The notes: a model not told the origin generated them from the letters alone. DNA of 64,000 nucleotides from an uncultured Candidatus Saccharibacteria bacterium (GCA_964350165.1 CAYGJA010000003.1:4233-68232); one strand, 5' to 3'; counted from the stretch's first letter, positions 21,966 through 54,202 are shown. Numbers and translations are program-made.

Positions 21966-22187
21966 TTCTATGGGTCGAATTCAACATCACCTGATCACAT
22001 CCTTTGTTCGCCTTCTTACCATACACCATGTATGCACTTGTACACTATGCACACATGGATTTTTGCTTTTTTAACGATAAAAGCATCGGGCTGACGTTTC
22101 GCGTCATAACAGCCATCACGCTATTGCAACAGTGCAATAATCGACCGATTCGGCCTCAGTGAGCAAGCTCATCTGGGCTTTATATCG

Positions 22188-23637
<1,450 letters not shown>

Positions 23638-23867
23638 ACTGGAAGATGAACCATAAATGGTTCATCGTATAGTAAGAAGACGAACAAAAAATGTCATTCG
23701 CCAACTTAATCAAAATTAAACTGGATTGTTTAGACTCTCTCCGGCGAGAGAGTCTGTGATGCTGAATTGTCAAAGTCCTTCGCGACCCATTCGTATGGGG
23801 CAATTCAAAAGAAAAGACCCACTGCAATCAGTCGTGTGGCCAGTATATAGAGTTACAGAAATGTGTC

Positions 23868-23905
23868 AAGAAAAAACACCTCAAACCGAATAAACGGCCT
23901 GAGGT
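23868..23905. terminator. Hairpin terminator downstream of nhaA (minus strand), flanked by A/T runs
   Basis: aaaaaACACCTCAaaccgaataaacggccTGAGGTGTtttaatt. Confidence 0.6.
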
Positions 23906-23931
23906 GTTTTAATTATTCTGATTTATTTATA

Positions 23932-25110
23932 TTATACGTTATCCATTTCTTCATAGGCACTCCATCGCACGTACCTACGGATGCGCATAATTTGACTGAC
24001 AAGCAATGCCACCAAGAGGGTGGCCAAGAAACCAAGCGTCGCCTGCACTCCGAGGGATGGTGGAACCTGAGCAGACTGGACAAATATCAACGCCACTGTG
24101 GCATTAACTCCAGCAAACACAGACATGAGTAACGGCTCACGCACCGAGGCATCTTGGTACTTCGGATCGATCTCTATATTGCGTCGTCGAGCAATGTATC
24201 GAGTCAACAAAAAACCGCCCGTAATTCCAATAACCTTACCACCAAAACCACCAAGCATTGTGGTTAAAAACACAGACCCGATCTGGATATCCTCTACCGA
24301 AAACAAAGTGGCCTGCACCCCAAAATAGAATAAAAGAATATTGACAACCCCTTTGATCCAAGAATCCAGCTTATGCTTGATTTCTTCGGGGGCAAACAAA
24401 ATCACCAAACACCCGCCCACCTCTGCATGAAGGCCAGCTGCATACATGGAGGCGATGCCGCCAATAGCCAGAATCATCCAAGCGATAGTGCTTTTCCTGA
24501 GTCCTGTCAAGACAGGTAAAACATTAACCGCAACAACAGTAAAAGCAACCGCCAAACAAGCGATTAGCCCTAGAATATTGACATGTGCAGCGTGGAGCAG
24601 GGCAAGTACTAATACACTTCCCAAGTCGTCGCCAATCGCGAGCATTGTAAGCATTGTTACAACCAAGTAGAGCTGCTTACTCAGATGTTCCTTGTTGCTC
24701 GATGAGGCAATAAAGGCTCGGTAGACACTAATTGACAAAGCCACATCAGTGGCAGCCCCCCCAAGACTGATTCCTAGTTGCTGACTCACCGTCATGCCAA
24801 TATTTAGACTATGGAGCACCGCATAGATAACAAGCGGCGGTACAACAACCCCACCCAAAATAGCACCTCCCATGACTAGACCACCTTCTTTTATCTCCGA
24901 GAGCTTGACATGAGTCCCCAGATGGGTAAAAAAAGACGATAAAATCAGAAACAAAAGCACGGTGTTTAGTTCCGAGGAACGATAAACAAACGCCGCGTCA
25001 GGTTTTTTAGTAAAAAAAACCAGGTAGGTTATTATTAAACCTACTACTAGCCCAGCCAGGGCGAGAGGAGCGTCTGCCACTTTGGTATGGAGCTCATTCT
25101 TTTTTCCCAT
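23932..25110 (-). CDS. nhaA: Na+/H+ antiporter NhaA
   Basis: 392-aa polytopic membrane protein; ...LAIGDDLGSVLVLALLHAAHVN... matches the NhaA IADDLGAIxxIAxFYT region. Confidence 0.75.
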   Translation of the reverse strand: MGKKNELHTKVADAPLALAGLVVGLIITYLVFFTKKPDAAFVYRSSELNTVLLFLILSSFFTHLGTHVKLSEIKEGGLVMGGAILGGVVVPPLVIYAVLHSLNIGMTVSQQLGISLGGAATDVALSISVYRAFIASSSNKEHLSKQLYLVVTMLTMLAIGDDLGSVLVLALLHAAHVNILGLIACLAVAFTVVAVNVLPVLTGLRKSTIAWMILAIGGIASMYAAGLHAEVGGCLVILFAPEEIKHKLDSWIKGVVNILLFYFGVQATLFSVEDIQIGSVFLTTMLGGFGGKVIGITGGFLLTRYIARRRNIEIDPKYQDASVREPLLMSVFAGVNATVALIFVQSAQVPPSLGVQATLGFLATLLVALLVSQIMRIRRYVRWSAYEEMDNV

Positions 25111-25230
25111 GATTCAATTGTTAGAGTGAAACTTGCAGCGAAAAATACGCCCTGATGGCGTATTTGTCAAAAATTTTTTTCTACAACACAAAACCGCGCT
25201 CGAAATGAACGCGGTTTTTTATAAAAAAAT

Positions 25231-26793
25231 TTATACCTTCACCCAAAACCCTTCGTCGGGAAAGGGTCCGGGTATTTTTTTGAACCCAAAGTCGCCCAGA
25301 TCATAGGTGACCCCACCCATCTGGGCCTCGAGGTCTGGCCAACACAGGACCACCCCCCCAGAGGGGACCACTCGGGCTATGTTCGCGAGCAGACTGAGTC
25401 GGTAGAGCTCATTAGGACCCTTTTCTGGGACACTAATGTCATCCATGCCGCCAAGGATGACTATCGGCAAAGACTCGTCTGCAGCCTCTACTAGATGGGT
25501 GAGCATGTCCCCATTTTGAACACTGATCTTGGGAGTAATCATCTTGCTCTCTGCATTGATATCAACCCCCACAAATTCTGCCTGCGGGGCATATTTTTGA
25601 AGGGTTTCGGCGAAACTTTTGAACTCCTCCTCTTTAGACCCACAAGCCAGAGTAGTGATTACTCGAGCTCCAGAGAGGGTTTTTTTCAATATTTGGGCAC
25701 CCTCTTTTTGTTCAACGAGGATTCTATCAAAATACCCTTTGTCGTACCCTTGCCCCGAATAAGACAAGAGAGGAGGTACCAGGTTCGAACGCGCCTCGCT
25801 CAAAGACGGGATTTGAACTTCATCCAATTCTCCCAAAAAAGCCCGCAAGGTGCTTCCTAGTTTTACCCAGGACTCCTCCCCGCTTCGTCTCAGCCAGCGA
25901 GAGACTTCCATAACTTGTGACCAGCTGCCTTTAACCCCCTCCATAATTTGTTCGCCTTTGTAGTAGGCGGTGCCTATCACAAGAAACCCGATGATGGCCT
26001 CGACCTGATCGGGACTAAGCTTGGGGCCCCTGGGTTCTCTCTCTTGAGAATACTCCTCTAGACCCCTCATCAGGTCGTTATCTAGAGCGTGGTTCCAGAT
26101 ATCATCTAGCTCCTGACGCTCCTTTTCGTCAAGTTCTTGGGCCAACAACGTTCCAGCCGTTATCCCAACTGCGGCTGTCGTCGCGGTCCCGTATCCTTCC
26201 ACCACCCCCCTCACATACTCTCGCAAACCCAAACCCATCACGGTGAGGGTAAAAGCTCCGGCGGCTGCGAGGGCAGGTCTAGAGTCCCGCATAATCAGGG
26301 TGGTGGCCAAAGCCTCTTCTGTGGCCATCTTTCCAACGCCATCCATAAAATCAGTTGGAGTTAGAGGAAGAGCCTCGGCCACTTCCCAAACGGTAGTGTC
26401 TTGCAAGAACTGCAGGTCCACCATAACCACTGGCTGGTGGTTTTTGGGTGGATTCGTGGCCGTCTTGTACAGACAAACCCATTGTGGTTCGCCTGCTTCA
26501 TTGATCCCGCTCATCCAGAGCGTATCAATGGTTACGGGCCCCACCGACCTGGTGGTACCCCCCAGAATATGGTCCAAGTGGGCTGTCACCCCACTTTGGG
26601 CAATTTGCCGAGTGGTCTGGGCCGAAGCCGCTAGAGGGACATAGACCCTGCTGGCAGCCCCGGGACACTTTGCACACCTGTTTCCCGCGGTCCCAAAGGG
26701 GACCTGGGCTAGGGTGGTCGTAGATAGAAAGAAAAGCAAGGTGGCCACGAGGGTGGCCGAGCGGAGGAAATTTTTTTTTTCCATTTTTTCCAT
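25231..26793 (-). CDS. Secreted multi-domain protein A: signal peptide plus ~190-aa N-terminal domain shared at near-100% DNA identity with 29951-31861; C-terminal domain unknown
   Basis: MEKMEKKNFLRSATLVATLLFFLSTTTLAQVPFGTAGNRCAKCPGAASRVYVPLAASAQTTRQIAQSGVTAHLDH... The same 190 aa occur in the 636-aa protein. The C-terminal part (...FVGVDINAESKM...VVPSGGVVLCWPD) is vaguely Rossmann/methyltransferase-like and is not called. Confidence 0.45.
   Translation of the reverse strand: MEKMEKKNFLRSATLVATLLFFLSTTTLAQVPFGTAGNRCAKCPGAASRVYVPLAASAQTTRQIAQSGVTAHLDHILGGTTRSVGPVTIDTLWMSGINEAGEPQWVCLYKTATNPPKNHQPVVMVDLQFLQDTTVWEVAEALPLTPTDFMDGVGKMATEEALATTLIMRDSRPALAAAGAFTLTVMGLGLREYVRGVVEGYGTATTAAVGITAGTLLAQELDEKERQELDDIWNHALDNDLMRGLEEYSQEREPRGPKLSPDQVEAIIGFLVIGTAYYKGEQIMEGVKGSWSQVMEVSRWLRRSGEESWVKLGSTLRAFLGELDEVQIPSLSEARSNLVPPLLSYSGQGYDKGYFDRILVEQKEGAQILKKTLSGARVITTLACGSKEEEFKSFAETLQKYAPQAEFVGVDINAESKMITPKISVQNGDMLTHLVEAADESLPIVILGGMDDISVPEKGPNELYRLSLLANIARVVPSGGVVLCWPDLEAQMGGVTYDLGDFGFKKIPGPFPDEGFWVKV
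26197..26775. repeat. Copy 1 of a ~580-bp near-identical direct repeat (N-terminal domain coding region of protein A); partner at 31274-31852
   Basis: Antisense six-frame ORFs 26243-26644 and 31320-31721 are identical (MRVKAPAAARAGLESRIIRVV...AEAARGT), as are 26401-26634 and 31478-31711. Identity begins at ...ccaccacccccctcacatactctcgcaaaccc and runs to the start-codon region. Confidence 0.85.
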
Positions 26794-26939
26794 AAGTACA
26801 GATATATCGGAATTTTACCCTTCCGATGGGGTTTTTGATTTAGAATGAGGTGTACGTTACATTTGCTTGTTTGTCAATATAAAAAACACCCTGCACAGTA
26901 TTATTTTGCAGGGTGCTGGCTTGTTTTCACAAGCATATT

Positions 26940-29816
26940 TTAGGGCCAAAACAAGTAGCCCTTTCTTTGCATGGGAGGAAGCGGGCTACCCCGATCTTCG
27001 AGATCTTCCATATCCAATACGTAGACAAATTTTTTGCCTTTTGGATATCGAAAACTGAAGACAAGGTCTCCATGTTCCGTCCCCTCTAGAGCGCTCAGGC
27101 CCCTCTTATCAAAGACTCCGAATAGACTAACCTTCATCTGCCAAGTAGCTGGCAAATGAATACAGCTTTTCTTCTTGAGAATCTGTTTGGAGATCTTTCG
27201 AACATCTTCTAGATACTCGCCATCTTCGGCGACAGTGTAATCCCAAAAGAGCTCATCTCGAACAGAGCCTAGACCCCAATCCAGGATCTTTAGCTCGCCG
27301 GTGGACACAGAAACAAGGATGTTCCACAGTCTGATATCGCCGTGTGCCACCCCAATTTTCTTCATTTTGTCTTGGAGATCATTGGCAAATTCTATTGCCT
27401 TTTGACCATCCAGTAACCCCTCTTCGACGGCTCGATTGAAAGGAAGATATCCACTCATTCGTTCCATAAAAAGATAGGACTCTCCGGTTGAAAGCCGAAC
27501 CAAACCAAAAGGCTTTGGAGTGGCTATTTTTCCCTCATAGGCCAAGCTTTGGCGTTGATACTCCGCCACGGGCCCTCCTTTGACCAAACGATGGCCAAAT
27601 TTGAACCTTTTGGCCACTACGCCCATATCTTCAAAACCGTACATGACGGAGGAGACTCCCCCGTTGGCGGTGTCGGCCAGTTGATAAGCCGTTCCTCCCG
27701 GCTGAATCTGCTTGAAAAAATCAAGCAAATCTTCCTTATCGTACCCATGATCAAAACCAGAGACATCAACATATGTCTCCACTGGGCCAAATCCAGACAA
27801 AGCAAGTCTGGTTACGGTGTTCCCATGACCACGCAGATAAAACATCTCCATGGTAACTCGGTTGACCAGGAAGCCAGCCTCTTCTACTCCCTCGAGGAAG
27901 AAGAAGACAAATTGGCCCGCCTTCTTGGCTCGGAGCTCATTACCGGCGTCGACACTTAAACCAAACCTGCTAAGGATACTTGCTTTTATAAACGAAGCAG
28001 TAACCTCTGTTTGGCCTTTCTTTCGGGGCAAATCCTCGACGTAGAATGCCTCGGATTTTCCGAAATTAACGGGTAGAAGGAACCGACTTCGCTCCAGGTC
28101 TTTTCCTAGGGCCTGTCTAAGAAGGGCTACGCCCCCGTCGGCAAGGGCCTTTTTTTCTGCTGGAAACGACTGCAGTTTCCACTGCCGGGAAAGTTCCAGC
28201 AGGTTTTGATAAAAAACCTGGTCAATTCCTGCAACATCACCCCTTCTTCTGTCTAACTCATTGACAAGAAGGCGGAGATTATGCCCGCGAACACCCTCTC
28301 CCAACACATGCGACCAAGCATACAGATACCGGGTCGTCTTGCTGTCGAAAGACACGTCCTCATAAAAGAACTCTTGAAACCACATCTCCCAAATGTAGTT
28401 CCCGTTACGAAAACGCCAGTGAAAAGATTCGGCATTCCCTGACTCCAAAATCAACCCAGCCATGTATTGGCTGATCTCGCTTTCTTCCCAGGTCCTGACA
28501 CCTTGAGAAGTGAGACTGACCGAGTAATCAACCTCTATCACTCTGTGGCTGACATACTCTCCAAAGAGACTAATTCGCTCTAACAGTCCTTGATATCGGG
28601 GATCGTAGAGCGAGTAAAGCTCTTCGGCCAGAAAGAGGTTCGCCAGAGCTTTAACCGCTCCCCAAGAAGAAATTCCTGGCTTTTCCGGGTCTGGATCATT
28701 TTGGCGATTCCCTTTGTGTCTAAGTACACGCCGGTAGGCATCCAGGGCCCTTTGGATCGCCTCTCTGTTCTTCTGATTGGTAATTTCTTGCCGCAGAAGC
28801 TCCTCTAGCGCCTGACTGATGTCGGGAAGATCTTCTCCTATTCGCCTAGACACTTCTTCGTCCCCCATGCCACGGAGACGCTCGATGGTAAGGCGAGCTG
28901 CTTCTGTGCCTCCAGACAAGAGGGCTGCATTGCGTGCTGCCCACTCTCCGAAACGGAAAATGTTATGCCATAGAATCTGGGCATCGACTTCGTCGTACAT
29001 TCTCCAGGCAACGTAGGTAACCGGTGCGGCCACCACACAAAAAGCCGCTGTGGTCATAGTAGTTGCTCCAGTCGTCGCCACAATATCCTTAAGGACCATT
29101 TTTCCAGCCTGGAAAGCTAGAATTCTTACAACCACACGCTGTGCTAAAGCTTCTTCTAGCCCGAACTGCAGGTATGTTCCAAGGATAGGCGCATTAGCAA
29201 AAGCCATTGAAGCCGGATAAGGGCTTCTTTTTTGCTCGAACTCCCACTCTGTTGAGTTTATTCTTACATAAACCCCCCTTGATCCTTCTTGGCCAAAATC
29301 TCTTGGCCGAAAAGGCTCTCCCGAAAGAGTAAAGACTAGACGATTTTGTCCGTCAATGACCGGCCGAGGTGATTCTCCGGAGAACTCCTCCATAATGAGC
29401 TCTGGGAAATAAAAAGTCGCCCCAGCGGAGGAATTTTCGTTTTTCGTTCTGATGAACGAAAAACTCGTGTCTGGCCCAGTATTCTGAGCAAAAACTATCC
29501 CACCCATCTGCATTACCCAAGTAGGGTGTAGTTCAGACAAGGGCACCCCAACTAAGGTGGTGTCACCCCCCTCCTTCTCTTTCATTTGACCCACAATCCA
29601 GTCTCCTGGAAAGAGCTGGATTTGTTTGTCTTCTTCCAGAAAGGTCATACGGCCTGAGTCATGCGCGAACGCATAACCGCCAACCAAAAAAAGTCCTACG
29701 AGCAGAATCCCTCCTGCGAGGACAAAAGAGAATTTGTTCTTATGTAACATTACGTTAACTGGTCCCGATTTTTCCCTCGTGACTAAGGGTTTTGTTTTTA
29801 AAAGAAAAACCGACAA
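26940..29816 (-). CDS. Large membrane-anchored secreted protein B with a C-terminal protein-kinase-like (Kdo/WaaP/APH-like) domain
   Basis: TM anchor FSFVLAGGILLVGLFLVGGYAFA (likely real start Met at 29750); C-terminal ...AEYQRQSLAYEGKIATPKPFGLV...KKIGVAHGDIRLWNILVSVSTGELKILDWGLGSV has the H.D...N.lv...iDxG catalytic/Mg-binding arrangement. Confidence 0.45.
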   Translation of the reverse strand: MSVFLLKTKPLVTREKSGPVNVMLHKNKFSFVLAGGILLVGLFLVGGYAFAHDSGRMTFLEEDKQIQLFPGDWIVGQMKEKEGGDTTLVGVPLSELHPTWVMQMGGIVFAQNTGPDTSFSFIRTKNENSSAGATFYFPELIMEEFSGESPRPVIDGQNRLVFTLSGEPFRPRDFGQEGSRGVYVRINSTEWEFEQKRSPYPASMAFANAPILGTYLQFGLEEALAQRVVVRILAFQAGKMVLKDIVATTGATTMTTAAFCVVAAPVTYVAWRMYDEVDAQILWHNIFRFGEWAARNAALLSGGTEAARLTIERLRGMGDEEVSRRIGEDLPDISQALEELLRQEITNQKNREAIQRALDAYRRVLRHKGNRQNDPDPEKPGISSWGAVKALANLFLAEELYSLYDPRYQGLLERISLFGEYVSHRVIEVDYSVSLTSQGVRTWEESEISQYMAGLILESGNAESFHWRFRNGNYIWEMWFQEFFYEDVSFDSKTTRYLYAWSHVLGEGVRGHNLRLLVNELDRRRGDVAGIDQVFYQNLLELSRQWKLQSFPAEKKALADGGVALLRQALGKDLERSRFLLPVNFGKSEAFYVEDLPRKKGQTEVTASFIKASILSRFGLSVDAGNELRAKKAGQFVFFFLEGVEEAGFLVNRVTMEMFYLRGHGNTVTRLALSGFGPVETYVDVSGFDHGYDKEDLLDFFKQIQPGGTAYQLADTANGGVSSVMYGFEDMGVVAKRFKFGHRLVKGGPVAEYQRQSLAYEGKIATPKPFGLVRLSTGESYLFMERMSGYLPFNRAVEEGLLDGQKAIEFANDLQDKMKKIGVAHGDIRLWNILVSVSTGELKILDWGLGSVRDELFWDYTVAEDGEYLEDVRKISKQILKKKSCIHLPATWQMKVSLFGVFDKRGLSALEGTEHGDLVFSFRYPKGKKFVYVLDMEDLEDRGSPLPPMQRKGYLFWP

Positions 29817-29950
29817 CAGTCGGCATGTTTAAAAAATAAAACCTTATTTAGGTCTGTATGTCAAATATCCCTAAACAAAAACCCGCTCATAATAAAAAAT
29901 ACCAAAAAAGCCATGCACGATGAGCGCACGGCTTTTTAAAACTCAGCCCA

Positions 29951-31861
29951 TCACTTATTTTTTGGTGGTTCGTGGTGGTAGCCGTAGACAGCTACCGAGA
30001 TGGTGCTGCTCTCTATAGCTACGTGAAACCCACTCGACCAATTGGGTTTCCCATAAACAGGAACCGCATCTAGGTACCGATTGGACAACACAATCCAGGA
30101 CTTCTTCACTTCATCCCAGAAAGGCTCCGAAGACCATTGCCCTCCTTCTTCTAACTGCCGTACTCCAACCTTGTCCACATACCGCTTCTTGTCTGAGTGG
30201 TCTATCCACAGGAGCTGTGGTTGATTGAAAGAATTTCGCATCATTCGCTGATACCTTATCAGCTGAGCCATCGACTCGCTGGCAATCGGGCTTGGAAACG
30301 ATACCACCCTGCCTAGATCAACCATCCACACCTTTCCTTGATAGTCCACCATAAAATTGTACGGATGACCGTCTCCGTTCCCATATCCGGCCTCGTGAAG
30401 GTTGTGGAAAATAACCATGGTTTGGCTCAAGAGGCCAGCCCTGGTGATTTGCCCACCCCACTCCTTTTCAATGTCGACATCTGACCAGGACAAGACATCT
30501 CCTAGGCGGTATCCCTGAATTCTGTCAAAAAGAATTCCTTCTCCATACTTAGAAGCAACATATCCAATGGCCCGCGGGGTAGGTATCCCTTTTCTTGCCA
30601 AAAGGTTGGCCAAATGCCCCTCGACATAGGGACGATTTCCGTCCGGGTCTGTGATGAGGACGACCTTGAGAATATAATTTTTCCTCGGGTCCTCTTTGTA
30701 GCCTTGGGCGTACCCAACAACCCTACTATAAAAGCCAGCACCTATCTGTGCGCCATCTTTTGCATAAAGCGCTAGGTACTCTTCAAGGAGTAAATGTCTC
30801 TCTTCCATGGATATTTCTCCTGGATAACCAATGTACTGGCGAAAGACCACTTTTCGATCTCCCGAAGATTCTGCCCCCACTGTGGTGGCGGCTACATCCA
30901 TATCCATGCACTCCCTGACACAATCAGGAGTTCCTGGGATGACATATTCTCCTCCCGTAACCAGAAGAGAATCTTGTGTAATCCACCAAGAACTCTTGGC
31001 TTGCAAATGCTGGCAATCCCAGCATTTTTTGTGCTGTTCCAGCACTCTTGCCACATCTGCGTCCAGCTCGTCCTGGACCAAGTCATCCAGCCACTCATAC
31101 GCGCTGTACGCATTGAGCAGATCCTTTAGCCAAGCTGGTAAAAAAGGGCCTTGTGGTGGCTCTGGCGCGAAGCTGGGCGATGATGGCTCCGGTAATGCAA
31201 TCGGCGGGGCTGGTGTCAAGGGCACAGTAATTCTTCCAGGAAAACTTGGCCCATTTCGAAAAGAAACGCGATCTTCCACCACCCCCCTCACATACTCTCG
31301 CAAACCCAAACCCATCACGGTGAGGGTAAAAGCTCCGGCGGCTGCGAGGGCAGGTCTAGAGTCCCGCATAATCAGGGTGGTGGCCAAAGCCTCTTCTGTG
31401 GCCATCTTTCCAACGCCATCCATAAAATCAGTTGGAGTTAGAGGAAGAGCCTCGGCCACTTCCCAAACGGTAGTGTCTTGCAAGAACTGCAGGTCCACCA
31501 TAACCACTGGCTGGTGGTTTTTGGGTGGATTCGTGGCCGTCTTGTACAGACAAACCCATTGTGGTTCGCCTGCTTCATTGATCCCGCTCATCCAGAGCGT
31601 ATCAATGGTTACGGGCCCCACCGACCTGGTGGTACCCCCCAGAATATGGTCCAAGTGGGCTGTCACCCCACTTTGGGCAATTTGCCGAGTGGTCTGGGCC
31701 GAAGCCGCTAGAGGGACATAGACCCTGCTGGCAGCCCCGGGACACTTTGCACACCTGTTTCCCGCGGTCCCAAAGGGGACCTGGGCTAGGGTGGTCGTAG
31801 ATAGAAAGAAAAGCAAGGTGGCCACGAGGGTGGCCGGGCGGAGGGAATATTTTTTTTTCAT
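29951..31861 (-). CDS. Secreted multi-domain protein C: same N-terminal domain as protein A, followed by a protein-kinase-like (Kdo/WaaP lipopolysaccharide-kinase-like) domain
   Basis: MKKKYSLRPATLVATLLFFLSTTTLAQVPFG... (shared domain); C-terminal ...PYVEGHLANLLARKGIPTPRAIGYVASKYGEGILFDRIQGYRLGDVL...IFHNLHEAGYGNGDGHPYNFMVDYQGKVWMVDLGRV matches the Kdo/WaaP family (GvptP.pva...llte.i.g..l ... H..G..HgD.h..N.lv....iDfg). Confidence 0.5.
   Translation of the reverse strand: MKKKYSLRPATLVATLLFFLSTTTLAQVPFGTAGNRCAKCPGAASRVYVPLAASAQTTRQIAQSGVTAHLDHILGGTTRSVGPVTIDTLWMSGINEAGEPQWVCLYKTATNPPKNHQPVVMVDLQFLQDTTVWEVAEALPLTPTDFMDGVGKMATEEALATTLIMRDSRPALAAAGAFTLTVMGLGLREYVRGVVEDRVSFRNGPSFPGRITVPLTPAPPIALPEPSSPSFAPEPPQGPFLPAWLKDLLNAYSAYEWLDDLVQDELDADVARVLEQHKKCWDCQHLQAKSSWWITQDSLLVTGGEYVIPGTPDCVRECMDMDVAATTVGAESSGDRKVVFRQYIGYPGEISMEERHLLLEEYLALYAKDGAQIGAGFYSRVVGYAQGYKEDPRKNYILKVVLITDPDGNRPYVEGHLANLLARKGIPTPRAIGYVASKYGEGILFDRIQGYRLGDVLSWSDVDIEKEWGGQITRAGLLSQTMVIFHNLHEAGYGNGDGHPYNFMVDYQGKVWMVDLGRVVSFPSPIASESMAQLIRYQRMMRNSFNQPQLLWIDHSDKKRYVDKVGVRQLEEGGQWSSEPFWDEVKKSWIVLSNRYLDAVPVYGKPNWSSGFHVAIESSTISVAVYGYHHEPPKNK
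31274..31852. repeat. Copy 2 of the ~580-bp near-identical direct repeat (partner 26197-26775)
   Basis: Identical antisense six-frame ORFs. The conserved 5'UTR motif atatcggaattttacccttccgatggggttttt is present at ~26801-26840 and ~31870-31905. Confidence 0.85.
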
Positions 31862-31976
31862 AATCCAAACATATCGGAATTTTACCCTTCCGATGGGGTT
31901 TTTTGTGGAAATTTAAAATGAAAATAAGCCCAAAAGGCTTATTTGTCAAAATTTGTATTTTGTTTTGTAATTTTAT

Positions 31977-32468
31977 CTAGCCTTGCTCGAGCACTTTGAT
32001 CATGGCGCGGTAGGTGTTGGGTCCGGTTTGGCCATCGGCAGTGAGGCCTTCGGCTTTTTGGAAATCACGAATCCGAGCCGCAGTACCAGGACCATAGGCA
32101 TTGTCTACCTTGTCACTACGATCAAGGTATTCGTTGAGGAATCTCTGGACTGTGCCCACCCGGGTACCGGTGCTGCCTTCGCGCATGATCACCTTGTCGG
32201 TGGCTAGTTTTTCTAGTTCGCCAATCAGGGTCTTGACCGCAGCCGAAAGCTCGGTGGCTGGTTCGGTGATTGTTGGTTCTGATTCGGTGACTTCGGGTTC
32301 GGTAGTGACGACCTCGACTGGTTCTGGCTCAGGTTCTGGGAGCTGTTCACCCTGCTCTAACACCACGTACTCGGTACCTCGCTCGAGCTGCTGCAGACCA
32401 AACCAGCCCAGGGTGGCCAGAGCGGCTACAAAGAGAACTACTAGAAAATTTATAGAAAATGAATTCAT
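31977..32468 (-). CDS. Membrane-anchored peptidoglycan-binding (PG_binding_1) domain protein
   Basis: Start MNSFSINFLVVLFVAALATLGWFGLQ (the track ORF extends upstream through a terminator hairpin); EPEPEPVEVVTTEPEVTESEPTITEP linker; C-terminal ...GSTGTRVGTVQRFLNEYL...NAYGPGTAARIRDFQKAEGLTADGQTGPNTYRAM matches G..V..LQ..L...DG.fG..T..AV..FQ...GL..DG..G..T. Confidence 0.65.
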   Translation of the reverse strand: MNSFSINFLVVLFVAALATLGWFGLQQLERGTEYVVLEQGEQLPEPEPEPVEVVTTEPEVTESEPTITEPATELSAAVKTLIGELEKLATDKVIMREGSTGTRVGTVQRFLNEYLDRSDKVDNAYGPGTAARIRDFQKAEGLTADGQTGPNTYRAMIKVLEQG

Positions 32469-32526
32469 GAGACTAGTATACCAGCCAAAGGTAAAACTGT
32501 TCAACTGCAAAATTGGGTAAAGAAAA

Positions 32527-32550
32527 AACCGAGCCCCCTTGGGTAGACTC
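32527..32550. terminator. Hairpin terminator downstream of the LysM-like gene (minus strand)
   Basis: aaaaaaCCGAGCCCCCttgggtagaCTCGGcttt. Confidence 0.5.
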
Positions 32551-32574
32551 GGCTTTAGAAAATATAATTTATGG

Positions 32575-33387
32575 CTAATCTTGCCACCAGCCATACTTTT
32601 GGAAACGATACTTGGTTCGAGAGCTGTAATACATAAGAGTCTCTCTATCAAGATAAATAGTGATTATTTGCCTAGTGGTCATGTCCGTGAACTCAAACTC
32701 ATTTCTGTTGTTCACATAAACTTGCGGAGAAGCGAGCAGGCTCTTTTCCGCAAAACTACCGTACTTAACCAGAACCCATCTCTGCAAAGACCACAACGTC
32801 ATAGACCTGTTAATTGGTATCTTGATGACACCAGGTGCAGGACTATAAACCCCAAGAGGTGGCACGAATAAATGCTGACCCTCCTTAATGGACCCATCAC
32901 TCGGAAGCCCGTTCTCGAATACAATGGCGGAATCACAGACGGTCTCCCAACCATTAGGGCAACCGTATTGCCCGCGAATACTTGTGAGTGTCTCGCCCTT
33001 TTGGACCTCATGCCATCGACCTTGCTCCCAGGCCCAATAGTGGTCCACCTGGAGGACTCGTAATGATGCCACTGGCCGTAGTTCTTGTGTCTGAAAAACA
33101 GAAAGACTACTGACTGGCTCAATTGGTGGACGACTGAGATCAATGCTAGTACTAAGACAATTTTCCGGCGCTGCATACGACTCGCCCAGAATCGGGTTGG
33201 GCCATTTTTGCCTCAGGCACTGAGCAGCCGCAGATATTTGTGCTTCAGATAAATGTGGCTGAGCATTTCTTATGGCATCCTCCCACAAGGTCGACGAAGG
33301 ATACTGAGAAATCCGCACTACGATAGACTGCGCCTGAGTAATCAGGCTAATAAACAAGAACAAACTTAGAGAAAGAATACGTGCCAT
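32575..33387 (-). CDS. Secreted LysM-like domain protein
   Basis: Signal peptide MARILSLSLFLFISLITQAQS; ...HEVQKGETLTSIRGQYGCPNGWETVCDSAIVFENGLPSDGSIKEGQHLFVP resembles LysM (V.kGDTL..IA..y......l...N.l.....i..GQ.L.iP). Confidence 0.5.
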   Translation of the reverse strand: MARILSLSLFLFISLITQAQSIVVRISQYPSSTLWEDAIRNAQPHLSEAQISAAAQCLRQKWPNPILGESYAAPENCLSTSIDLSRPPIEPVSSLSVFQTQELRPVASLRVLQVDHYWAWEQGRWHEVQKGETLTSIRGQYGCPNGWETVCDSAIVFENGLPSDGSIKEGQHLFVPPLGVYSPAPGVIKIPINRSMTLWSLQRWVLVKYGSFAEKSLLASPQVYVNNRNEFEFTDMTTRQIITIYLDRETLMYYSSRTKYRFQKYGWWQD

Positions 33388-33477
33388 GATATTTTTTATT
33401 GTAAAAACAAAAGCCCCAGAGTGGGACCTTTGTCTTTGGTTGATTTGCAGCATTAAACTACAAATTTCAAATCTTGG

Positions 33478-33894
33478 CTATTTTTTAAGCAAGTCGCGGA
33501 TCTCGACCAGCAGGTCGGTTTCGGATAGGCCAGCTGGAGCTTTCTCGGCTGGTTCTTCTTTTTTGAGCTTGTTAATCATTTTTATCACCACAAACAAAGC
33601 AAAAGCCACAATCAGGAAAGCAATGACTGCATTGATAAAGGCACCGTAGCCGAGTACCGCTGCCCCAGCCTCGCGAGCTGCATCAATCGAGGTAAAAGCC
33701 TCCCCGGTTGGGTTGCGCAATATCACGAACAAGTTGCCAAAGTCTGGCGCCTTGAAAATACCAGACACAATCGGCATCAGGATATCATTGACCAACGACG
33801 TGACCACGGTACCAAAAGCCGCACCAATAATAATACCGACCGCCATATCAATCATATTGCCCTTAATGGCAAAATCTTTGAACTCTTTAAGCAT
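33478..33894 (-). CDS. mscL: Large-conductance mechanosensitive channel
   Basis: MLKEFKDFAIKGNMIDMAVGIIIGAAFGTVVTSLVNDILMPIV... is the canonical MscL N-terminus; ~139 aa from Met at 33894. Confidence 0.85.
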   Translation of the reverse strand: MLKEFKDFAIKGNMIDMAVGIIIGAAFGTVVTSLVNDILMPIVSGIFKAPDFGNLFVILRNPTGEAFTSIDAAREAGAAVLGYGAFINAVIAFLIVAFALFVVIKMINKLKKEEPAEKAPAGLSETDLLVEIRDLLKK

Positions 33895-34001
33895 AGAAAA
33901 ATAAAAGTTAATTACAGACAAGTTAAGTATAGATTTTTGACCCAAAAAGAAAAGCATTCGACCGTTTAGTACAAATGCTTTTTTATTTAAAACATGCCAA
34001 G

Positions 34002-34586
34002 TCAGCGCATCATCCTGGCATGTTTTCTATTGAGGCGCCGGCAGGTAGTATCCGGCCAGATCAGCTTGAGCCGAGCACGAAATGAGCGAGACGGCCAGAG
34101 TGCGGGGAAGGTGTATTTTTCCCATCTGTGTCCTTTCTCTTCTTCGAGCCAAAGAGATCTGGACCACTCGCTCATTGGCAGCGAAATCTGCCAATCCCTG
34201 AAGCATCCACCCCTAATATGGATCGTGATGATTGTTTTTCCATAAGTGGCATGAGAAAAAACCATCACTATCTGGGCGCTGTTCCCGTTCAGCTGAGAAG
34301 TTTCTTGGACCTCCCAAAACCGAGCAGACTTGGAGCGGGTACCCCAAACCTGGGTTTCCTCATCAGGAATGGCAAACTTGCCCCAGCGGCTAGTCCTCAT
34401 CCGAACTCTCCCGCCATGAGCCTGGTACAAACGCAAATCCAGATCTAGCTTGTCCCCCGCATCCAGAAAATAATGGTGTCGGCCGGACTCGTCCAGGGAC
34501 ACCTGGTCTCGAATGGTTTTCCCCCAGCACATCGCCGGCAAGAAAACCAAAACCACTAATAAGGTTAATAAGGTTTTCGTTTTCAT
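34002..34586 (-). CDS. Hypothetical secreted protein
   Basis: Signal peptide MKTKTLLTLLVVLVFLPAMCWG; no motif recognised. Confidence 0.35.
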   Translation of the reverse strand: MKTKTLLTLLVVLVFLPAMCWGKTIRDQVSLDESGRHHYFLDAGDKLDLDLRLYQAHGGRVRMRTSRWGKFAIPDEETQVWGTRSKSARFWEVQETSQLNGNSAQIVMVFSHATYGKTIITIHIRGGCFRDWQISLPMSEWSRSLWLEEEKGHRWEKYTFPALWPSRSFRARLKLIWPDTTCRRLNRKHARMMR

Positions 34587-34687
34587 AGGCAATGATATTT
34601 TCGTGACTATACCTTCTTTTTTAAAATAACCAAACAAAAACCCGCCATGATGGCGAGTTTTTGTGGGTATAAATTAGGAGTTTTGGA

Positions 34688-36367
34688 TTACATCATACCT
34701 CCCATACCGCCCATGCCCGGCATGCCGCCCCCCATGGTTGGACCGTTGTCCTTGCCTGGTTCGTCGGCAATAGCCACTTCGGTCGTGAGGAAAATAGCCG
34801 CTGCACTAGCTGCGTTCTGCAGAGCATTGCGGGTTACTTTGACGGGGTCAATAATTCCGGCTTTGATCATGTCTTCGACATACTCGCCCTTCCGAGCGTC
34901 ATATCCAAGACCAGCATGGGTATGCTTGTCACCCTTGGCATCAACGTAATAACCACTCGCTACATTCTGCACAATTACTTTGGCTTCGTCTTCTTGGCCC
35001 GCATTGATCAGAATCTGCTCCATCGGCATCAACAGTGATTTAGCCACCAACTGATAACCAGCTTTCATTTCGTCCTTTGCTTTTTCTACTTTTGCACCCA
35101 AAGCTTTGGCTGTTTTGGCTAGAGCCGAACCTCCTCCAGGAACAATTCCCTCTTCAATAGCTGCTTTGGTTGCCTGGACCGCATCCTCAATCTTGTGCTT
35201 GAGGTACTTCATCTCGGTTTCGGTTGCTGCTCCGACGCGAATCACCGCCACGCCACCAGACAGTTTGGCGATACGTTCTTGGAGCTTTTCGCTGTCGTAT
35301 TTCGAAGTTGTATTTTCCAGTTGGGTCTTGAGCTGGGCCACCCGAGCCGCGATAGCTTTTTTGTCGCCCTTGCCGCCCACGATAATAGTCTCGTCTTTTT
35401 TGGACCGAACGACATCAGCGCGACCAATTACCTCGAGGCCAGCTTCTTCGAGCTTCATGCCTTTTTCTTCCGAGATAACCGTTGCTCCTACGGTAACGGC
35501 GATATCTTCGAGCATTTCTTTGCGCTTGTCTCCAAAACCAGGAGCCTTGATGGCCAGCACATTGATAGCGCCACGGATTTTGTTCACCACAAAAGTAGCC
35601 AAAGCTTCCCCGTCTACGTCTTCGGCAATCAACACAATGTCTTTCTTGCCAGACTGAGCGATTTGCTCAATCAAGGGAATAATTTCTTTTACGGTCGAAA
35701 CTTTCTTGTCTACGAGAATAATGGCTGGGTCTTTGAAATCAGCCTCCATACGTTCGGTATTCGTCACCATATATGGAGAAATATAACCACGATCAAAGGC
35801 CATTCCTTCGACCACATCCGAACTAATTCCCATGGTCTGACCTTCTTCAACGGTCACCACACCGTCATTACCAACCTTGTCGATGGTATCAGCAATGATG
35901 GCTCCAATTTCGTCTGATTCCGCAGAAATAGCTGCAACGTGTTTGATCTCATCGCCTTTTACTGGTTGGGCCATTTTCTTCAGAATATCAACCGCATCCT
36001 CGGCAGCTTTTTCGATACCGATTTTCATCAGGGTTCCGTTCACGCCCATGGCGGTCTTCTTTAGTCCTTCGGTAATCATGGCATGGGCCAAAGTAGTGGC
36101 TGTAGTAGTCCCATCACCCGCGGCTTCGTTTGTTTTTTCGGCAGCTTCGCGAATAATCTGAGCTCCCATGTTTTCGAATTTGTCAGACAGTTCGATGTCT
36201 TTGGCAATCGAGACTCCATCATTGGTAATGGTTGGTCCACCAAAACCGTCCAGTGCCACGTTGCGACCTCGCGGCCCAAGGGTAACTTTTACGGCCTCGG
36301 CCACAATGTCGATTCCTTTTTTAAGTGCCTCGCGGGCCTCGTTGTGCAGTAGTACTTTCTTTCCCAT
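34688..36367 (-). CDS. groL: Chaperonin GroEL (60 kDa)
   Basis: [39 protein letters not shown]...; ...[14 protein letters not shown]...; C-terminal [13 protein letters not shown] repeat. Confidence 0.95.
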
Positions 36368-54198: not shown

Positions 54199-54202
54199 GA
54201 TC

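What the first reader, a model, noticed from the sequence alone, without database searches (positions are those of the whole stretch)
26940..31861. Secreted or membrane-anchored proteins carrying Kdo/WaaP-like protein-kinase-like domains
Protein C (29951-31861) has ...PYVEGHLANLLARKGIPTPRAIGYV...GEGILFDRIQG... and ...IFHNLHEAGYGNGDGHPYNFMVD...VWMVDLGRV. Protein B (26940-29816, 958 aa) has ...AEYQRQSLAYEG...PKPFGLV... and ...IGVAHGDIRLWNILVS...LKILDWGLG. Both match the hallmark layout of the lipopolysaccharide-kinase (Kdo/WaaP) branch of the PKL fold: catalytic HxD/HGD, a downstream N, and a DxG metal site. Yet both proteins are exported (signal peptide or N-terminal TM with the bulk outside). 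Extracytoplasmic atypical kinases are rare in bacteria; CotH- and Fam20-like kinases are the known cases. Together with the shared N-terminal domain this looks like a family of secreted kinase-like effectors or surface-modifying enzymes.
Basis: partly seen in the sequence, partly recalled or inferred. Interest (0 to 1): 0.55.

Follow-up and report, generated by a model that had tools for sequence, protein, structure and literature searches.

The report
Orphan membrane-anchored kinase-like proteins in CPR
Two neighbouring genes of a candidate-phyla-radiation bacterium encode one-of-a-kind envelope proteins that really do carry intact protein-kinase-like domains, but it is unresolved (and I think less likely than not) that those domains sit outside the cell.

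Summary
B (26940-29816, minus strand) and C (29951-31861, minus strand) are real genes. Each has an N-terminal export signal and a complete protein-kinase-like (PKL) core.

- **C motifs:** G374xG, K399, E414, N495-G-D497, N502, D515-L-G.
- **B motifs:** K736, E752, H825-G-D827, N832, D846-W-G.

C is closest to Kdo/InaA-type small kinases. It scores 96.8% by hhalign against an independent family profile, its AlphaFold core has pLDDT above 90, and its top Foldseek hits are WbdD, Rio2 and Bud32. B is a more divergent PKL, with only sub-threshold Pkinase, Pim-1 and Bud32 hits. Neither reaches any curated family cut-off. Outside the kinase core, both are orphans among about 15 billion proteins.

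The "secreted kinase" reading is not established. Each protein has a second, borderline hydrophobic helix between the exported N-terminal domain and the kinase region (C 170-187, B 244-270). If that helix spans the membrane, the kinase is cytoplasmic and the protein has a receptor-like topology. Three hydrophobicity scales disagree. My estimate is about 55-60% cytoplasmic and about 30% exported.

The "shared N-terminal domain" links C with gene A (25231-26793), not with B. It includes a 564-nt perfect repeat that ends just after that helix.

Interest is moderate. This is a new architectural variant of a known enzyme superfamily.

The parts
29951..31861 (-). Gene C, 636 aa: signal peptide, exported domain, borderline hydrophobic helix, Pro-rich linker, 4-Cys region, PKL domain, tail
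   Evidence: ORF. Annotated identically in NCBI. Followed by a strong terminator.
31784..31861 (-). C signal peptide (aa 1-26: MKKKYSLRPATLVATLLFFLSTTTLA|QV)
   Evidence: Basic n-region, hydrophobic core, and T-L-A before the likely cleavage site. dGapp -1.0, Wimley-White (WW) -8.9. No dedicated signal-peptide predictor was available.
31358..31783 (-). C N-terminal exported domain (aa 27-168). Orphan, identical in A, contains a CxxC motif (C37, C40).
   Evidence: No relative in 1.84 billion representatives other than A. 98% identical to A.
31301..31357 (-). C second hydrophobic segment (aa 169-187, R-PALAAAGAFTLTVMGLGL-R). Candidate transmembrane helix that decides the topology.
   Evidence: Kyte-Doolittle (KD) 17-aa window 1.79. 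dGapp +0.4. WW does not register it. Flank K+R count is 2 on the N side and 4 on the C side. Predicted helical in the low-confidence model of A.
31142..31264 (-). C Pro-rich linker (aa 200-240)
   Evidence: Read directly from the sequence.
30887..31054 (-). C region with C280-x2-C283 ... C314-x3-C318 (possible zinc or disulfide motif)
   Evidence: Motif positions. No family hit.
30227..30769 (-). C protein-kinase-like domain (aa 365-545): G374xG376, K399, E414, N495-G-D497, N502, D515-L-G
   Evidence: hhalign against Kdo-family profiles 96.8% and 95.8%. AF2 pLDDT above 90 for aa 409-534. Foldseek PDB top hits are WbdD, Rio2 and Bud32. P0006 hit. The N-lobe (aa 365-405) rests on motifs only, with pLDDT below 55.
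26940..29816 (-). Gene B (958 aa from the TTG; probably 936 aa from the ATG at 29750)
   Evidence: ORF. NCBI and Logan product is 936 aa.
29664..29732 (-). B N-terminal signal anchor or signal peptide (aa 29-51 in 958-aa numbering; FSFVLAGGILLVGLFLVGGYAFA|HD)
   Evidence: KD 2.6, dGapp -2.3.
29088..29663 (-). B N-terminal exported domain (aa 52-243). Orphan, unrelated to that of A and C.
29007..29087 (-). B second hydrophobic segment (aa 244-270, IVATTGATTMTTAAFCVVAAPVTYVAW). Candidate transmembrane helix.
   Evidence: KD 1.65, dGapp about -0.1, WW -3.4. Flank K+R count is 3 on the N side and 1 on the C side, which argues against membrane insertion.
27702..29006 (-). B middle region (aa 271-705). 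Orphan, charged, probably helical.
   Evidence: No hits.
27207..27701 (-). B protein-kinase-like domain (aa 706-870): K736 (VVAKRF), E752, H825-G-D827, N832, D846-W-G
   Evidence: Pkinase 1e-4, APH 1.6e-3, Bud32 9e-4. PDB kinases led by Pim-1 at 2.7e-4. In-register hhalign alignments. No structure model was made.
25231..26793 (-). Gene A (520 aa). Same signal peptide, exported domain and hydrophobic segment as C, followed by an unrelated C-terminal part (aa 340-520) that is possibly Rossmann/methyltransferase-like.
   Evidence: For the C-terminal part there are only weak hints and no significant sequence hit.
26196..26759 (.). 564-nt perfect direct repeat, copy 1 (copy 2 is 31273-31836). It encodes aa about 9-196 of C and about 12-199 of A.
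   Evidence: An independent Logan contig breaks 30 nt inside identical sequence at both of its ends: at one end inside this 564-nt repeat (copy 2, 31302) and at the other inside the 33-nt identical upstream stretch (26807).
31273..31836 (.). 564-nt perfect direct repeat, copy 2
29905..29937 (-). Intrinsic-terminator-like hairpin after C (14-bp stem plus T run). B and C are separate transcription units.
31872..31895 (.). Conserved hairpin in the leader of C. The same element lies upstream of A at 26805-26828.

Best explanation
B and C are lineage-specific, membrane-anchored kinases of a divergent Paceibacteria-like CPR bacterium.

Proposed topology. Each protein starts with a Sec signal or signal anchor that places an orphan domain of about 140-190 aa outside the cell. 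A weakly hydrophobic Ala/Gly/Thr-rich helix then crosses back through the membrane. The rest of the protein, including a catalytically complete minimal PKL domain of the Kdo/InaA-Rio-Bud32-WbdD type, lies in the cytoplasm where ATP is available.

Proposed function. They would work as receptor-like or membrane-tethered kinases. The outer domain senses or localises. The inner PKL domain phosphorylates a cytoplasmic-face substrate, either a protein or, as for KdkA, WaaP and WbdD, a sugar or lipid-linked envelope precursor.

Role of gene A. A reuses exactly the same outer module and helix as C, with a different and possibly methyltransferase-like inner domain. A and C would therefore be two enzymes addressed by one external module.

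What is shown:
- the genes
- the export signals
- the PKL core and its catalytic residues
- the orphan status of the proteins
- the A/C module sharing

What is inferred:
- the membrane crossing of the second helix
- kinase activity
- the substrate class
- any sensing function
For: PKL identity:
- Searches return only PKL families, aligned in register on the catalytic motifs.
- The Lys, Glu, Asp, Asn and Asp residues are conserved in both proteins although the two are barely alignable with each other. That argues for selection on catalysis.

Topology:
- In each protein the only segments with dGapp below 3 are the N-terminal signal and one segment placed between the N-terminal domain and the rest (plus one at exactly 3.0 in B). 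The values are C +0.4 and B about 0.
- Those values equal genuine NhaA and MscL helices (0.3-0.7). Soluble controls (GroEL, GyrA, S1, RNase J and others) have nothing below 2.6.
- The same architecture recurs in B and C even though their N-terminal domains are unrelated.
- The positive-inside rule fits for C (K+R count 2 versus 4).
- The A/C perfect repeat ends 9 residues after the helix, which is a natural 'ectodomain + TM + juxtamembrane' module boundary.

Prior from established knowledge: all characterised Kdo, WaaP, Rio, Bud32 and WbdD-type kinases act in the cytoplasm or at its membrane face, using ATP. WbdD is described in PMC3482155.
Against: - The second helices are weak. On the Wimley-White octanol scale C's segment does not register, and B's (-3.4) is no better than non-TM segments.
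- Kyte-Doolittle values (1.79 and 1.65) are at the low edge of this genome's TM range. Single-pass anchors here score 2.1-3.5.
- The positive-inside rule is reversed for B (K+R count 3 versus 1).
- A has a further Ala/Gly/Thr-rich stretch (aa 201-218, dGapp 1.6). This suggests such segments may be a compositional habit of these proteins rather than TM helices.
- The dG predictor was re-implemented from remembered parameters. Its sanity checks were passed, but it is not the reference code.
- No dedicated topology predictor was available and there is no informative structure of the N-terminal half (pLDDT 37).
- The Pro-rich linker after C's helix would also suit a wall-spanning extracellular spacer.
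- No partner phosphatase, FHA protein or glycan-assembly genes lie nearby.
Confidence: 0.55

Rival explanations
1. The second hydrophobic segments are not membrane-spanning. C is a Sec-secreted protein with a cleaved signal peptide, and B is an N-terminally anchored protein. Their kinase-like domains are extracytoplasmic. They would act on the cell's own surface, on the host surface, or inside a host cell after transfer from this presumed episymbiont, using host or extracellular ATP.
For: - There are strong N-terminal export signals.
- The second segments fail or are marginal on the Wimley-White scale and are low on Kyte-Doolittle.
- The positive-inside rule is reversed for B.
- Thr/Ala/Gly-rich and Pro-rich linkers are typical of surface proteins.
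- The neighbours are envelope proteins: PG-binding, LysM-like and signal-peptide orphans.
- From general knowledge, CPR genomes are rich in N-terminally anchored surface proteins of unknown function.
Against: - There is no ATP source outside a monoderm cell.
- No member of the Kdo, Rio, Bud32 or WbdD branch is known to be exported.
- There is no similarity to the known exported kinases CotH and Fam20.
- On the dGapp scale both segments sit at the insertion threshold and stand out from soluble controls.
- There are no wall-sorting or secretion-system signals at the C-termini.
Confidence: 0.3
2. The domains have the PKL fold but are not phosphotransferases in vivo. They could be pseudokinase-like binding or scaffold modules, or they could catalyse different nucleotide chemistry such as AMPylation, as in SelO-type pseudokinases. 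In that case location is less constrained by ATP logic.
For: - C has N-G-D instead of H/Y-x-D.
- The N-lobes are poorly supported (pLDDT below 55 for C 365-405).
- All family scores are sub-threshold.
- The sequences are orphans, so conservation cannot be checked.
Against: - The full set of G-loop, Lys, Glu, catalytic Asp, Asn and DxG is present in both proteins.
- From general knowledge, the His of HRD is not catalytic.
- Degenerate pseudokinases usually lose at least one of these residues.
Confidence: 0.1
3. This is an artefact: chance motifs in spurious ORFs, or a chimeric assembly that created the A/C shared module.
For: - The proteins are singletons among about 15 billion proteins.
- A 564-nt perfect repeat in a MAG contig could be a mis-join.
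Against: - The ORFs are long (636 and 936 aa), with proper signals, terminators and a confidently foldable kinase core.
- An independent Logan assembly of run ERR3534981 reproduces 26807-31302 at 100% identity and breaks exactly k-1 = 30 nt into identical sequence at each end, as expected for genuine repeats.
- The 5' flanks of the two copies differ at 8 positions, so two distinct copies exist.
Confidence: 0.03

Closest known systems
Kdo kinase KdkA / WaaP / InaA (Pfam PF06293, lipopolysaccharide kinase family)
   Same: The closest sequence relatives of C's kinase core belong to this family (P0006 at E 7.8e-5; hhalign 96.8% and 95.8%). It is a minimal PKL domain with a short C-lobe and no APE/GHI subdomain. 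The alphaC Glu, the catalytic Asp...Asn and D-L-G align. B shares the VVxKRF beta3 motif.
   Different: Neither protein reaches the Pfam or NCBIfam cut-off. The known enzymes are about 240-aa soluble or peripheral cytoplasmic proteins of LPS-making diderms. Here the domain is embedded in 636- and 936-aa proteins with export signals, in a CPR bacterium that, from general knowledge of CPR, is not expected to make LPS. The substrate must therefore differ.
WbdD, the bifunctional kinase-methyltransferase that caps the E. coli O9a O-antigen (PDB 4azt/4azs; PMC3482155)
   Same: It is the top Foldseek hit for C's model (E 6.7e-6) and also a weak sequence hit (E about 0.08-0.1). The idea of a kinase and a methyltransferase working on one target is echoed by C and A sharing one N-terminal module.
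   Different: In WbdD the two activities are in one cytoplasmic polypeptide with a coiled-coil ruler, encoded in an ABC-transporter glycan cluster. Here they would be two proteins. A's methyltransferase nature is only hinted at, and no glycan-assembly cluster is adjacent.
Rio and Bud32/PRPK atypical kinases
   Same: They are high-ranking fold matches for C (Rio2 7.6e-6, Bud32 4.7e-5) and the best NCBIfam hit for B (TIGR03724, 9e-4). They have the same minimal PKL architecture.
   Different: Rio and Bud32 are soluble ribosome-biogenesis and KEOPS factors with conserved partners and flanking domains. None of those partners or domains is present here.
Hanks-type bacterial receptor kinases (PknB/PrkC)
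   Same: They are membrane-anchored kinases that couple an extracellular domain to a cytoplasmic PKL domain. B hits S. aureus PknB (4eqm) and Pkinase weakly.
   Different: The order is reversed. PknB has an N-terminal cytoplasmic kinase, a TM helix, and C-terminal PASTA domains outside. Here the outside domain is N-terminal and the kinase C-terminal, resembling histidine-kinase or eukaryotic receptor-kinase topology. There are no PASTA domains and the Pkinase score is below threshold.
Exported atypical kinases CotH and Fam20
   Same: Only the concept matches: a PKL-fold protein carrying a signal peptide.
   Different: There is no detectable sequence relationship (no PF08757 or PF06702 hit at E<=10). 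The fold matches are to the Kdo, Rio, Bud32 and WbdD branch instead.

Membership tests
Protein-kinase-like (PKL) superfamily | Catalytic loop Asp with downstream Asn, plus the DxG/DFG metal-binding Asp | tested here: met
   C has N495-G-D497...N502 and D515-L-G. B has H825-G-D827...N832 and D846-W-G. These are invariant columns in alignments with Kdo-family proteins and in register in the HMMER and hhalign alignments.
Protein-kinase-like (PKL) superfamily | Beta3 Lys and alphaC Glu pair, and a Gly-rich loop | tested here: met
   B: K736 (VVAKRF) and E752 align to VVVKRF and the family Glu in hhalign. C: E414 is invariant, and K399 (YILK) aligns with the beta3 strand of the family in alignment A5, preceded by G374-A-G376. 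Caveat: C's N-lobe is modelled with pLDDT below 55, so K399 rests on the alignment and motif only.
Protein-kinase-like (PKL) superfamily | Bilobal kinase fold | tested here: met
   C only. The AF2 core has pLDDT above 90 for aa 409-534. There are 159 PDB matches at E<=0.001, and the 50 best listed are all PKL proteins, led by WbdD, Rio2 and Bud32. Caveat: the MSA consisted of Kdo kinases, so this is partly circular. B was not modelled.
Pfam PF06293 Kdo/WaaP family (and NCBIfam KdkA NF002475) | Score at or above the curated gathering cut-off | tested here: not met
   There is no PF06293 hit for B or C at E<=10. NF002475 scores 15.4 bits for C and 11.7 bits for B against a cut-off of 142. Profile-profile similarity is nevertheless strong for C (96.8%) and weak for B (57% and 5%).
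Pfam PF06293 Kdo/WaaP family | Acts on the LPS inner core (Kdo or heptose) in an LPS-producing organism | not testable with these tools
   Only a 64-kb window is available, and no LPS genes were seen among the ORFs scanned against Pfam in it. The nearest GroEL relatives are Paceibacterota/Parcubacteria MAGs.
Pfam PF00069 Pkinase (Hanks-type) | Score at or above the gathering cut-off, and a full C-lobe with APE and GHI subdomains | tested here: not met
   B scores 22.2 bits against 31.7. Only about 110 aa follow DWG and there is no APE motif. C has no Pkinase hit.
CotH (PF08757) / Fam20 (PF06702) exported kinases | Profile match to the family | tested here: not met
   No hit at E<=10 for A, B or C.
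Sec-exported / N-terminally anchored proteins | N-terminal basic n-region, hydrophobic core and small-x-small cleavage motif | tested here: met
   C and A have KKK/R, then LVATLLFFLSTTTLA|QV (dGapp -1.0 and -1.5). B has HKNK, then a 23-aa core and AFA|HD (dGapp -2.3). No SignalP-type tool was available, so cleavage is unverified.
Extracytoplasmic (secreted) kinase | No membrane-spanning segment between the export signal and the kinase domain | tested here: inconclusive
   One borderline segment is present in each protein. C 170-187: KD 1.79, WW fails, dGapp +0.4. B 244-270: KD 1.65, WW -3.4, dGapp about 0. The positive-inside rule supports insertion for C and argues against it for B.
WbdD-like kinase + methyltransferase chain terminator | Kinase paired with a SAM methyltransferase, a coiled-coil ruler, and location in an ABC-transporter glycan cluster | tested here: inconclusive
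   The kinase similarity is met. A's methyltransferase nature is only hinted at: a beta-alpha-beta pattern, non-significant Foldseek hits enriched in methyltransferases (best E 0.24), and no sequence support. No glycan-cluster genes are adjacent.

The most novel reading that the evidence does not exclude
B and C are genuinely extracytoplasmic, catalytically active kinases of the Kdo/Rio/Bud32 branch. They would be exported by the Sec pathway of a CPR episymbiont and would phosphorylate host-surface or host-cytoplasmic targets, or the symbiont's own wall polymers using host-derived ATP. That would be a new class of secreted bacterial kinase unrelated to CotH and Fam20. A swappable export module (the A/C perfect repeat) would deliver alternative enzymatic 'warheads'.
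Probability: 0.25. Interest if true: 0.75.

Novelty: new variant of a known kind. Interest (0 to 1): 0.4.

Why it matters
Under the receptor-like reading, these would be bacterial kinases of the minimal Kdo/Rio type wired like eukaryotic receptor kinases, with the sensor outside at the N-terminus and the kinase inside at the C-terminus. That architecture is not described for this branch, and it occurs in a CPR lineage whose signalling and envelope biology are almost unknown.

Under the exported reading, they would extend the very short list of bacterial extracellular kinases and point to a host-manipulation mechanism for episymbionts.

Either way, the A/C pair shows a single export and anchor module being kept 100% identical on two different enzymes. 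That is a tidy natural example of domain shuffling with concerted evolution.

The limit on importance is that all three proteins are singletons among about 15 billion sequences. Any lesson may be restricted to one lineage, and nothing can be checked by conservation.

Tried and rejected
1. **Word-index homolog searches with full C and B.** They returned only self hits and A.
2. **Exhaustive HMMER with C.** Three of the four distant hits are NHL-repeat proteins. I rejected them as spurious. The NHL unit 'P.G..VD..GN.WV.D' mimics the catalytic-loop-to-DxG stretch, and the score comes from summing 6-8 repeats.
3. **Synteny via GroEL in 80 genomes.** The source genome is absent (best identity 63%, Paceibacterota). 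No relative of A, B, C, MscL or NhaA lies in those flanks.
4. **phmmer --max of every non-kinase region against 8,246 ORFs from the fetched loci.** Nothing was found.
5. **Full-length C alignment for AlphaFold.** MAFFT smeared the homologs' N-lobes over C's unrelated N-terminal domain. I discarded it and used only aa 335-636.
6. **AlphaFold of full-length A to see the shared module and the C-terminal domain.** Mean pLDDT was 37, which is unusable for 3D. Its Foldseek search gave no significant hit.
7. **A as a methyltransferase.** Pfam, NCBIfam and PDB phmmer gave nothing. BLASTP against the window's own Methyltransf_11 protein gave E 0.32. I keep this only as a weak hint.
8. **Amino-acid-composition classifier, exported versus cytoplasmic.** CV AUC was 0.79, but it mis-scored the certainly exported A/C N-terminal domain (0.07). 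I rejected it as uninformative.
9. **PADLOC defence models.** Only weak kinase-to-kinase resemblance appeared for B.
11. **The look-up of encoding contigs for C and cluster look-up.** Neither gave a record or a name.
12. **Literature searches on CPR secreted kinases and CotH.** Nothing directly relevant turned up.


Full report
**What is there**

Three consecutive genes lie on the minus strand:
- A: 25231-26793, 520 aa
- B: 26940-29816, 958 aa from a TTG
- C: 29951-31861, 636 aa

NCBI annotates C at 636 aa and B at 936 aa, so B most likely starts at the ATG at 29750. A 14-bp terminator hairpin follows C, so the genes are separate transcription units.

The neighbours are:
- an NhaA antiporter
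- a PG_binding_1 protein
- a LysM-like protein
- MscL
- an orphan signal-peptide protein
- GroEL/ES
- Pth
- an S1 protein
- GyrA

Further out, the content is typical of CPR genomes: T4SS-pilin-like proteins, an InlB-repeat protein, solute-binding proteins, GH6 and GH8 hydrolases, a PMT-like glycosyltransferase and a mannose-1-P guanylyltransferase. The best GroEL matches in one-genome-per-species GTDB are Paceibacterota/Parcubacteria MAGs at only 63% identity. The organism is therefore a divergent CPR bacterium that is not itself in that collection.

**Are the domains kinase-like?**

Pfam and NCBIfam give only sub-threshold hits, but every one of them is a PKL family.
- For B: Pkinase 1e-4, APH 1.6e-3, Bud32 9e-4 and KdkA 0.09.
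- For C: KdkA 0.007, MABP-1/ABC1, UbiB, LanKC and APH.

An exhaustive HMMER scan of 1.84 billion cluster representatives with full-length C returned six proteins: C itself, A, three NHL-repeat proteins and P0006. I reject the NHL hits as repeat-amplified mimicry of the catalytic segment. P0006 passes the Pfam Kdo threshold (1.3e-13) and aligns to C 419-542 at E 7.8e-5.

I then built a 45-member Kdo-kinase alignment that contains none of B, C or P0006. It matches C with 96.8% probability and E 2.4e-10 over 113 columns, from the alphaC Glu through the catalytic loop to DxG. A separate InaA-like sub-profile gives 95.8% and 8e-9.

B is weaker against these profiles: 57% with E 1e-4, and 5% with E 0.008. 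The alignments are in register, however, and include VVAKRF against VVVKRF. B also hits about 60 PDB protein kinases (Pim-1 at 2.7e-4, CaMKI, S. aureus PknB) on the hinge, catalytic loop and DFG stretch. C's PDB sequence hits are the ABC1/MABP-1 and WbdD kinase domains.

Motif positions:
- C: G374-A-G376, K399, E414, N495-G-D497, N502, D515-L-G
- B: K736, E752, H825-G-D827, N832, D846-W-G

AlphaFold2 of C 335-636 with an 81-row alignment gave pLDDT above 90 for residues 409-534. The N-lobe strands scored below 55 and the last 90 residues below 45. Foldseek against PDB returned 159 matches at E<=0.001, and the 50 best listed are all PKL. The leaders are:
- the WbdD kinase domain (6.7e-6)
- Rio2 (7.6e-6)
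- Bud32/PRPK
- ABC1

Because the MSA consisted of Kdo kinases, the model is not fully independent evidence. Overall, the PKL assignment is secure for C and well supported for B. Formal membership of PF06293 or PF00069 is not met.

**Orphan status and modularity**

Outside the kinase cores nothing has a detectable relative. This holds in 5.8 billion clusters, in the exhaustive scan and in a small local ORF database. All three proteins are singletons.

B and C are barely alignable with each other (best E 0.03, within the kinase core). The 'shared N-terminal domain' belongs to C and A, which are 98% identical over 196 aa.

At the DNA level, 564 nt are perfectly identical (26196-26759 = 31273-31836). 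The first ~10 codons and the leader carry 8 mismatches in ~70 nt. That pattern suggests gene conversion of an older duplication.

An independent Logan contig from run ERR3534981 matches 26807-31302 at 100%. It ends exactly 30 nt into identical sequence on each side, as a k=31 graph does at true repeats. The duplication is therefore real and not a MAG mis-join.

The identity stops 9 residues after a hydrophobic segment. After that point C continues into a Pro-rich linker, a C-x2-C...C-x3-C region and the PKL domain, while A continues into unrelated sequence.

**Topology, the crux**

The N-termini are convincing export signals:
- C and A: KKK/R, then LVATLLFFLSTTTLA|QV
- B: HKNK, then a 23-residue core, then AFA|HD

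Each protein also has one further hydrophobic stretch, placed between the N-terminal domain and the rest:
- C 170-187: PALAAAGAFTLTVMGLGL, flanked by Arg on both sides
- B 244-270: IVATTGATTMTTAAFCVVAAPVTYVAW

I calibrated three hydrophobicity scales against the other proteins of the window.

*Kyte-Doolittle, 17-residue windows in uncharged runs.*
- The disputed segments score 1.79 (C) and 1.65 (B).
- Soluble controls have none at or above 1.4, except a Rossmann beta1 strand at 1.5.
- Weak but genuine NhaA helices score 1.7-1.8, and single-pass anchors score 2.1-3.5.

*Wimley-White octanol, 19-residue windows.*
- C's segment does not register.
- B's scores -3.4, no better than several non-TM segments.
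- Genuine helices mostly score -5 to -17.

*Hessa/von Heijne dG-apparent.*
- I re-implemented this from remembered parameters. The sanity checks gave L19 -7.5, A19 +1.5 and 4Leu/15Ala -0.6.
- C scores +0.4 and B about 0. NhaA helices score 0.3-0.7 and MscL TM1 scores 0.4.
- GroEL's minimum is 2.6, and GyrA, S1, RNase J and others have nothing below 3.

The positive-inside rule supports an out-to-in crossing for C (K+R count 2 versus 4) and argues against one for B (3 versus 1).

The AlphaFold model of A was too poor to help (pLDDT 37), although it does predict this segment as a helix. A composition classifier failed its positive control.

The sequence evidence is therefore genuinely borderline. 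I weight it with three considerations:
1. Two unrelated N-terminal domains are each followed by such a segment.
2. The A/C module boundary falls just after it.
3. From established knowledge, every characterised member of this kinase branch uses cytoplasmic ATP.

That gives about 55-60% for a 'signal/anchor, outside domain, TM helix, cytoplasmic kinase' topology and about 30% for a truly exported kinase.

**Mechanism**

The most likely picture is membrane-tethered, receptor-like minimal kinases. Their outer orphan domain senses or localises, and their inner PKL domain phosphorylates a cytoplasmic-face substrate.

Both kinase domains lack the APE/GHI substrate-binding subdomain of Hanks kinases. 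Only about 110-120 poorly predicted residues follow DxG. The substrate could therefore be a protein or, as for KdkA, WaaP and WbdD, a sugar on a lipid-linked envelope precursor.

The WbdD resemblance (PMC3482155) prompted the idea that C and A form a split kinase/methyltransferase pair on a common anchor. A's residues 377-519 show a beta-alpha-beta alternation and a motif order resembling class I methyltransferases. The non-significant Foldseek hits are enriched in SAM methyltransferases (3iht prob 0.87, MycE, PrmA). No sequence method supports this and there is no glycan cluster nearby. It remains a lead and is not a finding.

**Comparison and verdict**

The proteins work like, and C is distantly related to, Kdo/InaA-type small kinases. 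They are not demonstrable members of any curated family, and they are unrelated to CotH and Fam20.

The N-out/C-in order is the reverse of PknB-type receptor kinases. The architecture, together with the complete lack of homologs, makes this a new variant of a known kind.

Its interpretation is only partly supported, because extracytoplasmic placement of the kinase is unproven and, in my judgement, the less likely option. Interest is moderate (0.4). It would rise substantially if topology reporters or proteomics showed the kinase domains outside the cell.

Noticed in passing
26196-26759 and 31273-31836 (flanks 26760-26836 / 31837-31903): There is a 564-nt perfectly identical direct repeat inside genes A and C, while the adjacent ~70 nt (first codons plus leader) carry 8 mismatches. 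This looks like gene conversion (concerted evolution) of an export/anchor module shared by two different enzymes. Recombination between the copies would delete B and C's unique part, so cassette-like switching is conceivable.
   Followed up: partly
L081 (Logan ERR3534981 contig, 4,496 bp) = window 26807-31302: An independent assembly reproduces B plus C's unique part at 100% identity. It terminates exactly 30 nt into identical sequence at each end, one end inside the 564-nt repeat and the other inside the 33-nt identical upstream stretch, as expected at real repeats. This supports the duplication and the sequence of B and C.
   Followed up: yes
26805-26828 and 31872-31895: A conserved hairpin (ATCGGAA-GGGTAAAA-TTCCGAT on the coding strand) lies in the leaders of both A and C, just upstream of the start codons. 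It could be a shared operator or a 5'-UTR regulatory element.
   Followed up: no
25142-25180 and 31921-31959: A repeated intergenic module combines a terminator-like hairpin with a TTGACA-17-TATTTT promoter-like site. One copy lies downstream of A and upstream of nhaA. The other lies downstream of the PG-binding gene and upstream of C.
   Followed up: no
25234-25776 (A residues 340-520): By eye the motif order resembles a class I SAM methyltransferase (VITTLACGS / EFVGVDIN / NGD / IVILGG / ARVVPSGGVV), with beta-alpha-beta alternation in a low-confidence model. Weak Foldseek hits are enriched in methyltransferases. No sequence method confirms it.
   Followed up: partly
30887-31054 (C residues 270-325); also 31742-31753 (C37-x2-C40): A C280-x2-C283 ... 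C314-x3-C318 four-cysteine pattern sits between the Pro-rich linker and the kinase domain. It could be a zinc knuckle or disulfides. There is also a CxxC in the exported N-terminal domain.
   Followed up: no
C residues 494-546 vs P0004/P0005/P0007: The NHL-repeat consensus (P.G..VD..GN.WV.D..NNR) closely mimics the Kdo-type catalytic-loop-to-DxG segment (HP.N..VD..G..W..DLGR). As a result, multi-repeat NHL proteins score E about 1e-5 against a kinase query. This is a trap for automated annotation.
   Followed up: yes
22000-36000 vs rest of window: G+C is highest around A, B and C (0.48-0.51), against 0.40-0.46 in the 38-60 kb part of the window. This may reflect different origin or expression level of this block.
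   Followed up: no
11627-12457, 12454-14574, 7142-8494: Two adjacent genes encode T4SS-pilin-like C-terminal domains, one of them with InlB B-repeats. There is also a DUF11/fn3 surface protein with an N-terminal signal and a C-terminal TM anchor. This is a typical CPR surface/attachment repertoire.
   Followed up: no
51523-54237 and 48518-50434: A 904-aa protein fuses a polytopic PMT-like glycosyltransferase (about 12 TM helices) to a GH8 glycoside hydrolase domain. Next to it lie an N-terminally anchored GH6 cellulase-family protein and a mannose-1-P guanylyltransferase. This is an unusual synthase-hydrolase fusion.
   Followed up: no
31977-34637: Directly upstream of C lies a run of envelope genes: a PG_binding_1 protein with a TM anchor, a LysM-like signal-peptide protein, MscL and an orphan 211-aa signal-peptide protein. 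A, B and C therefore sit in an envelope-protein neighbourhood.
   Followed up: partly
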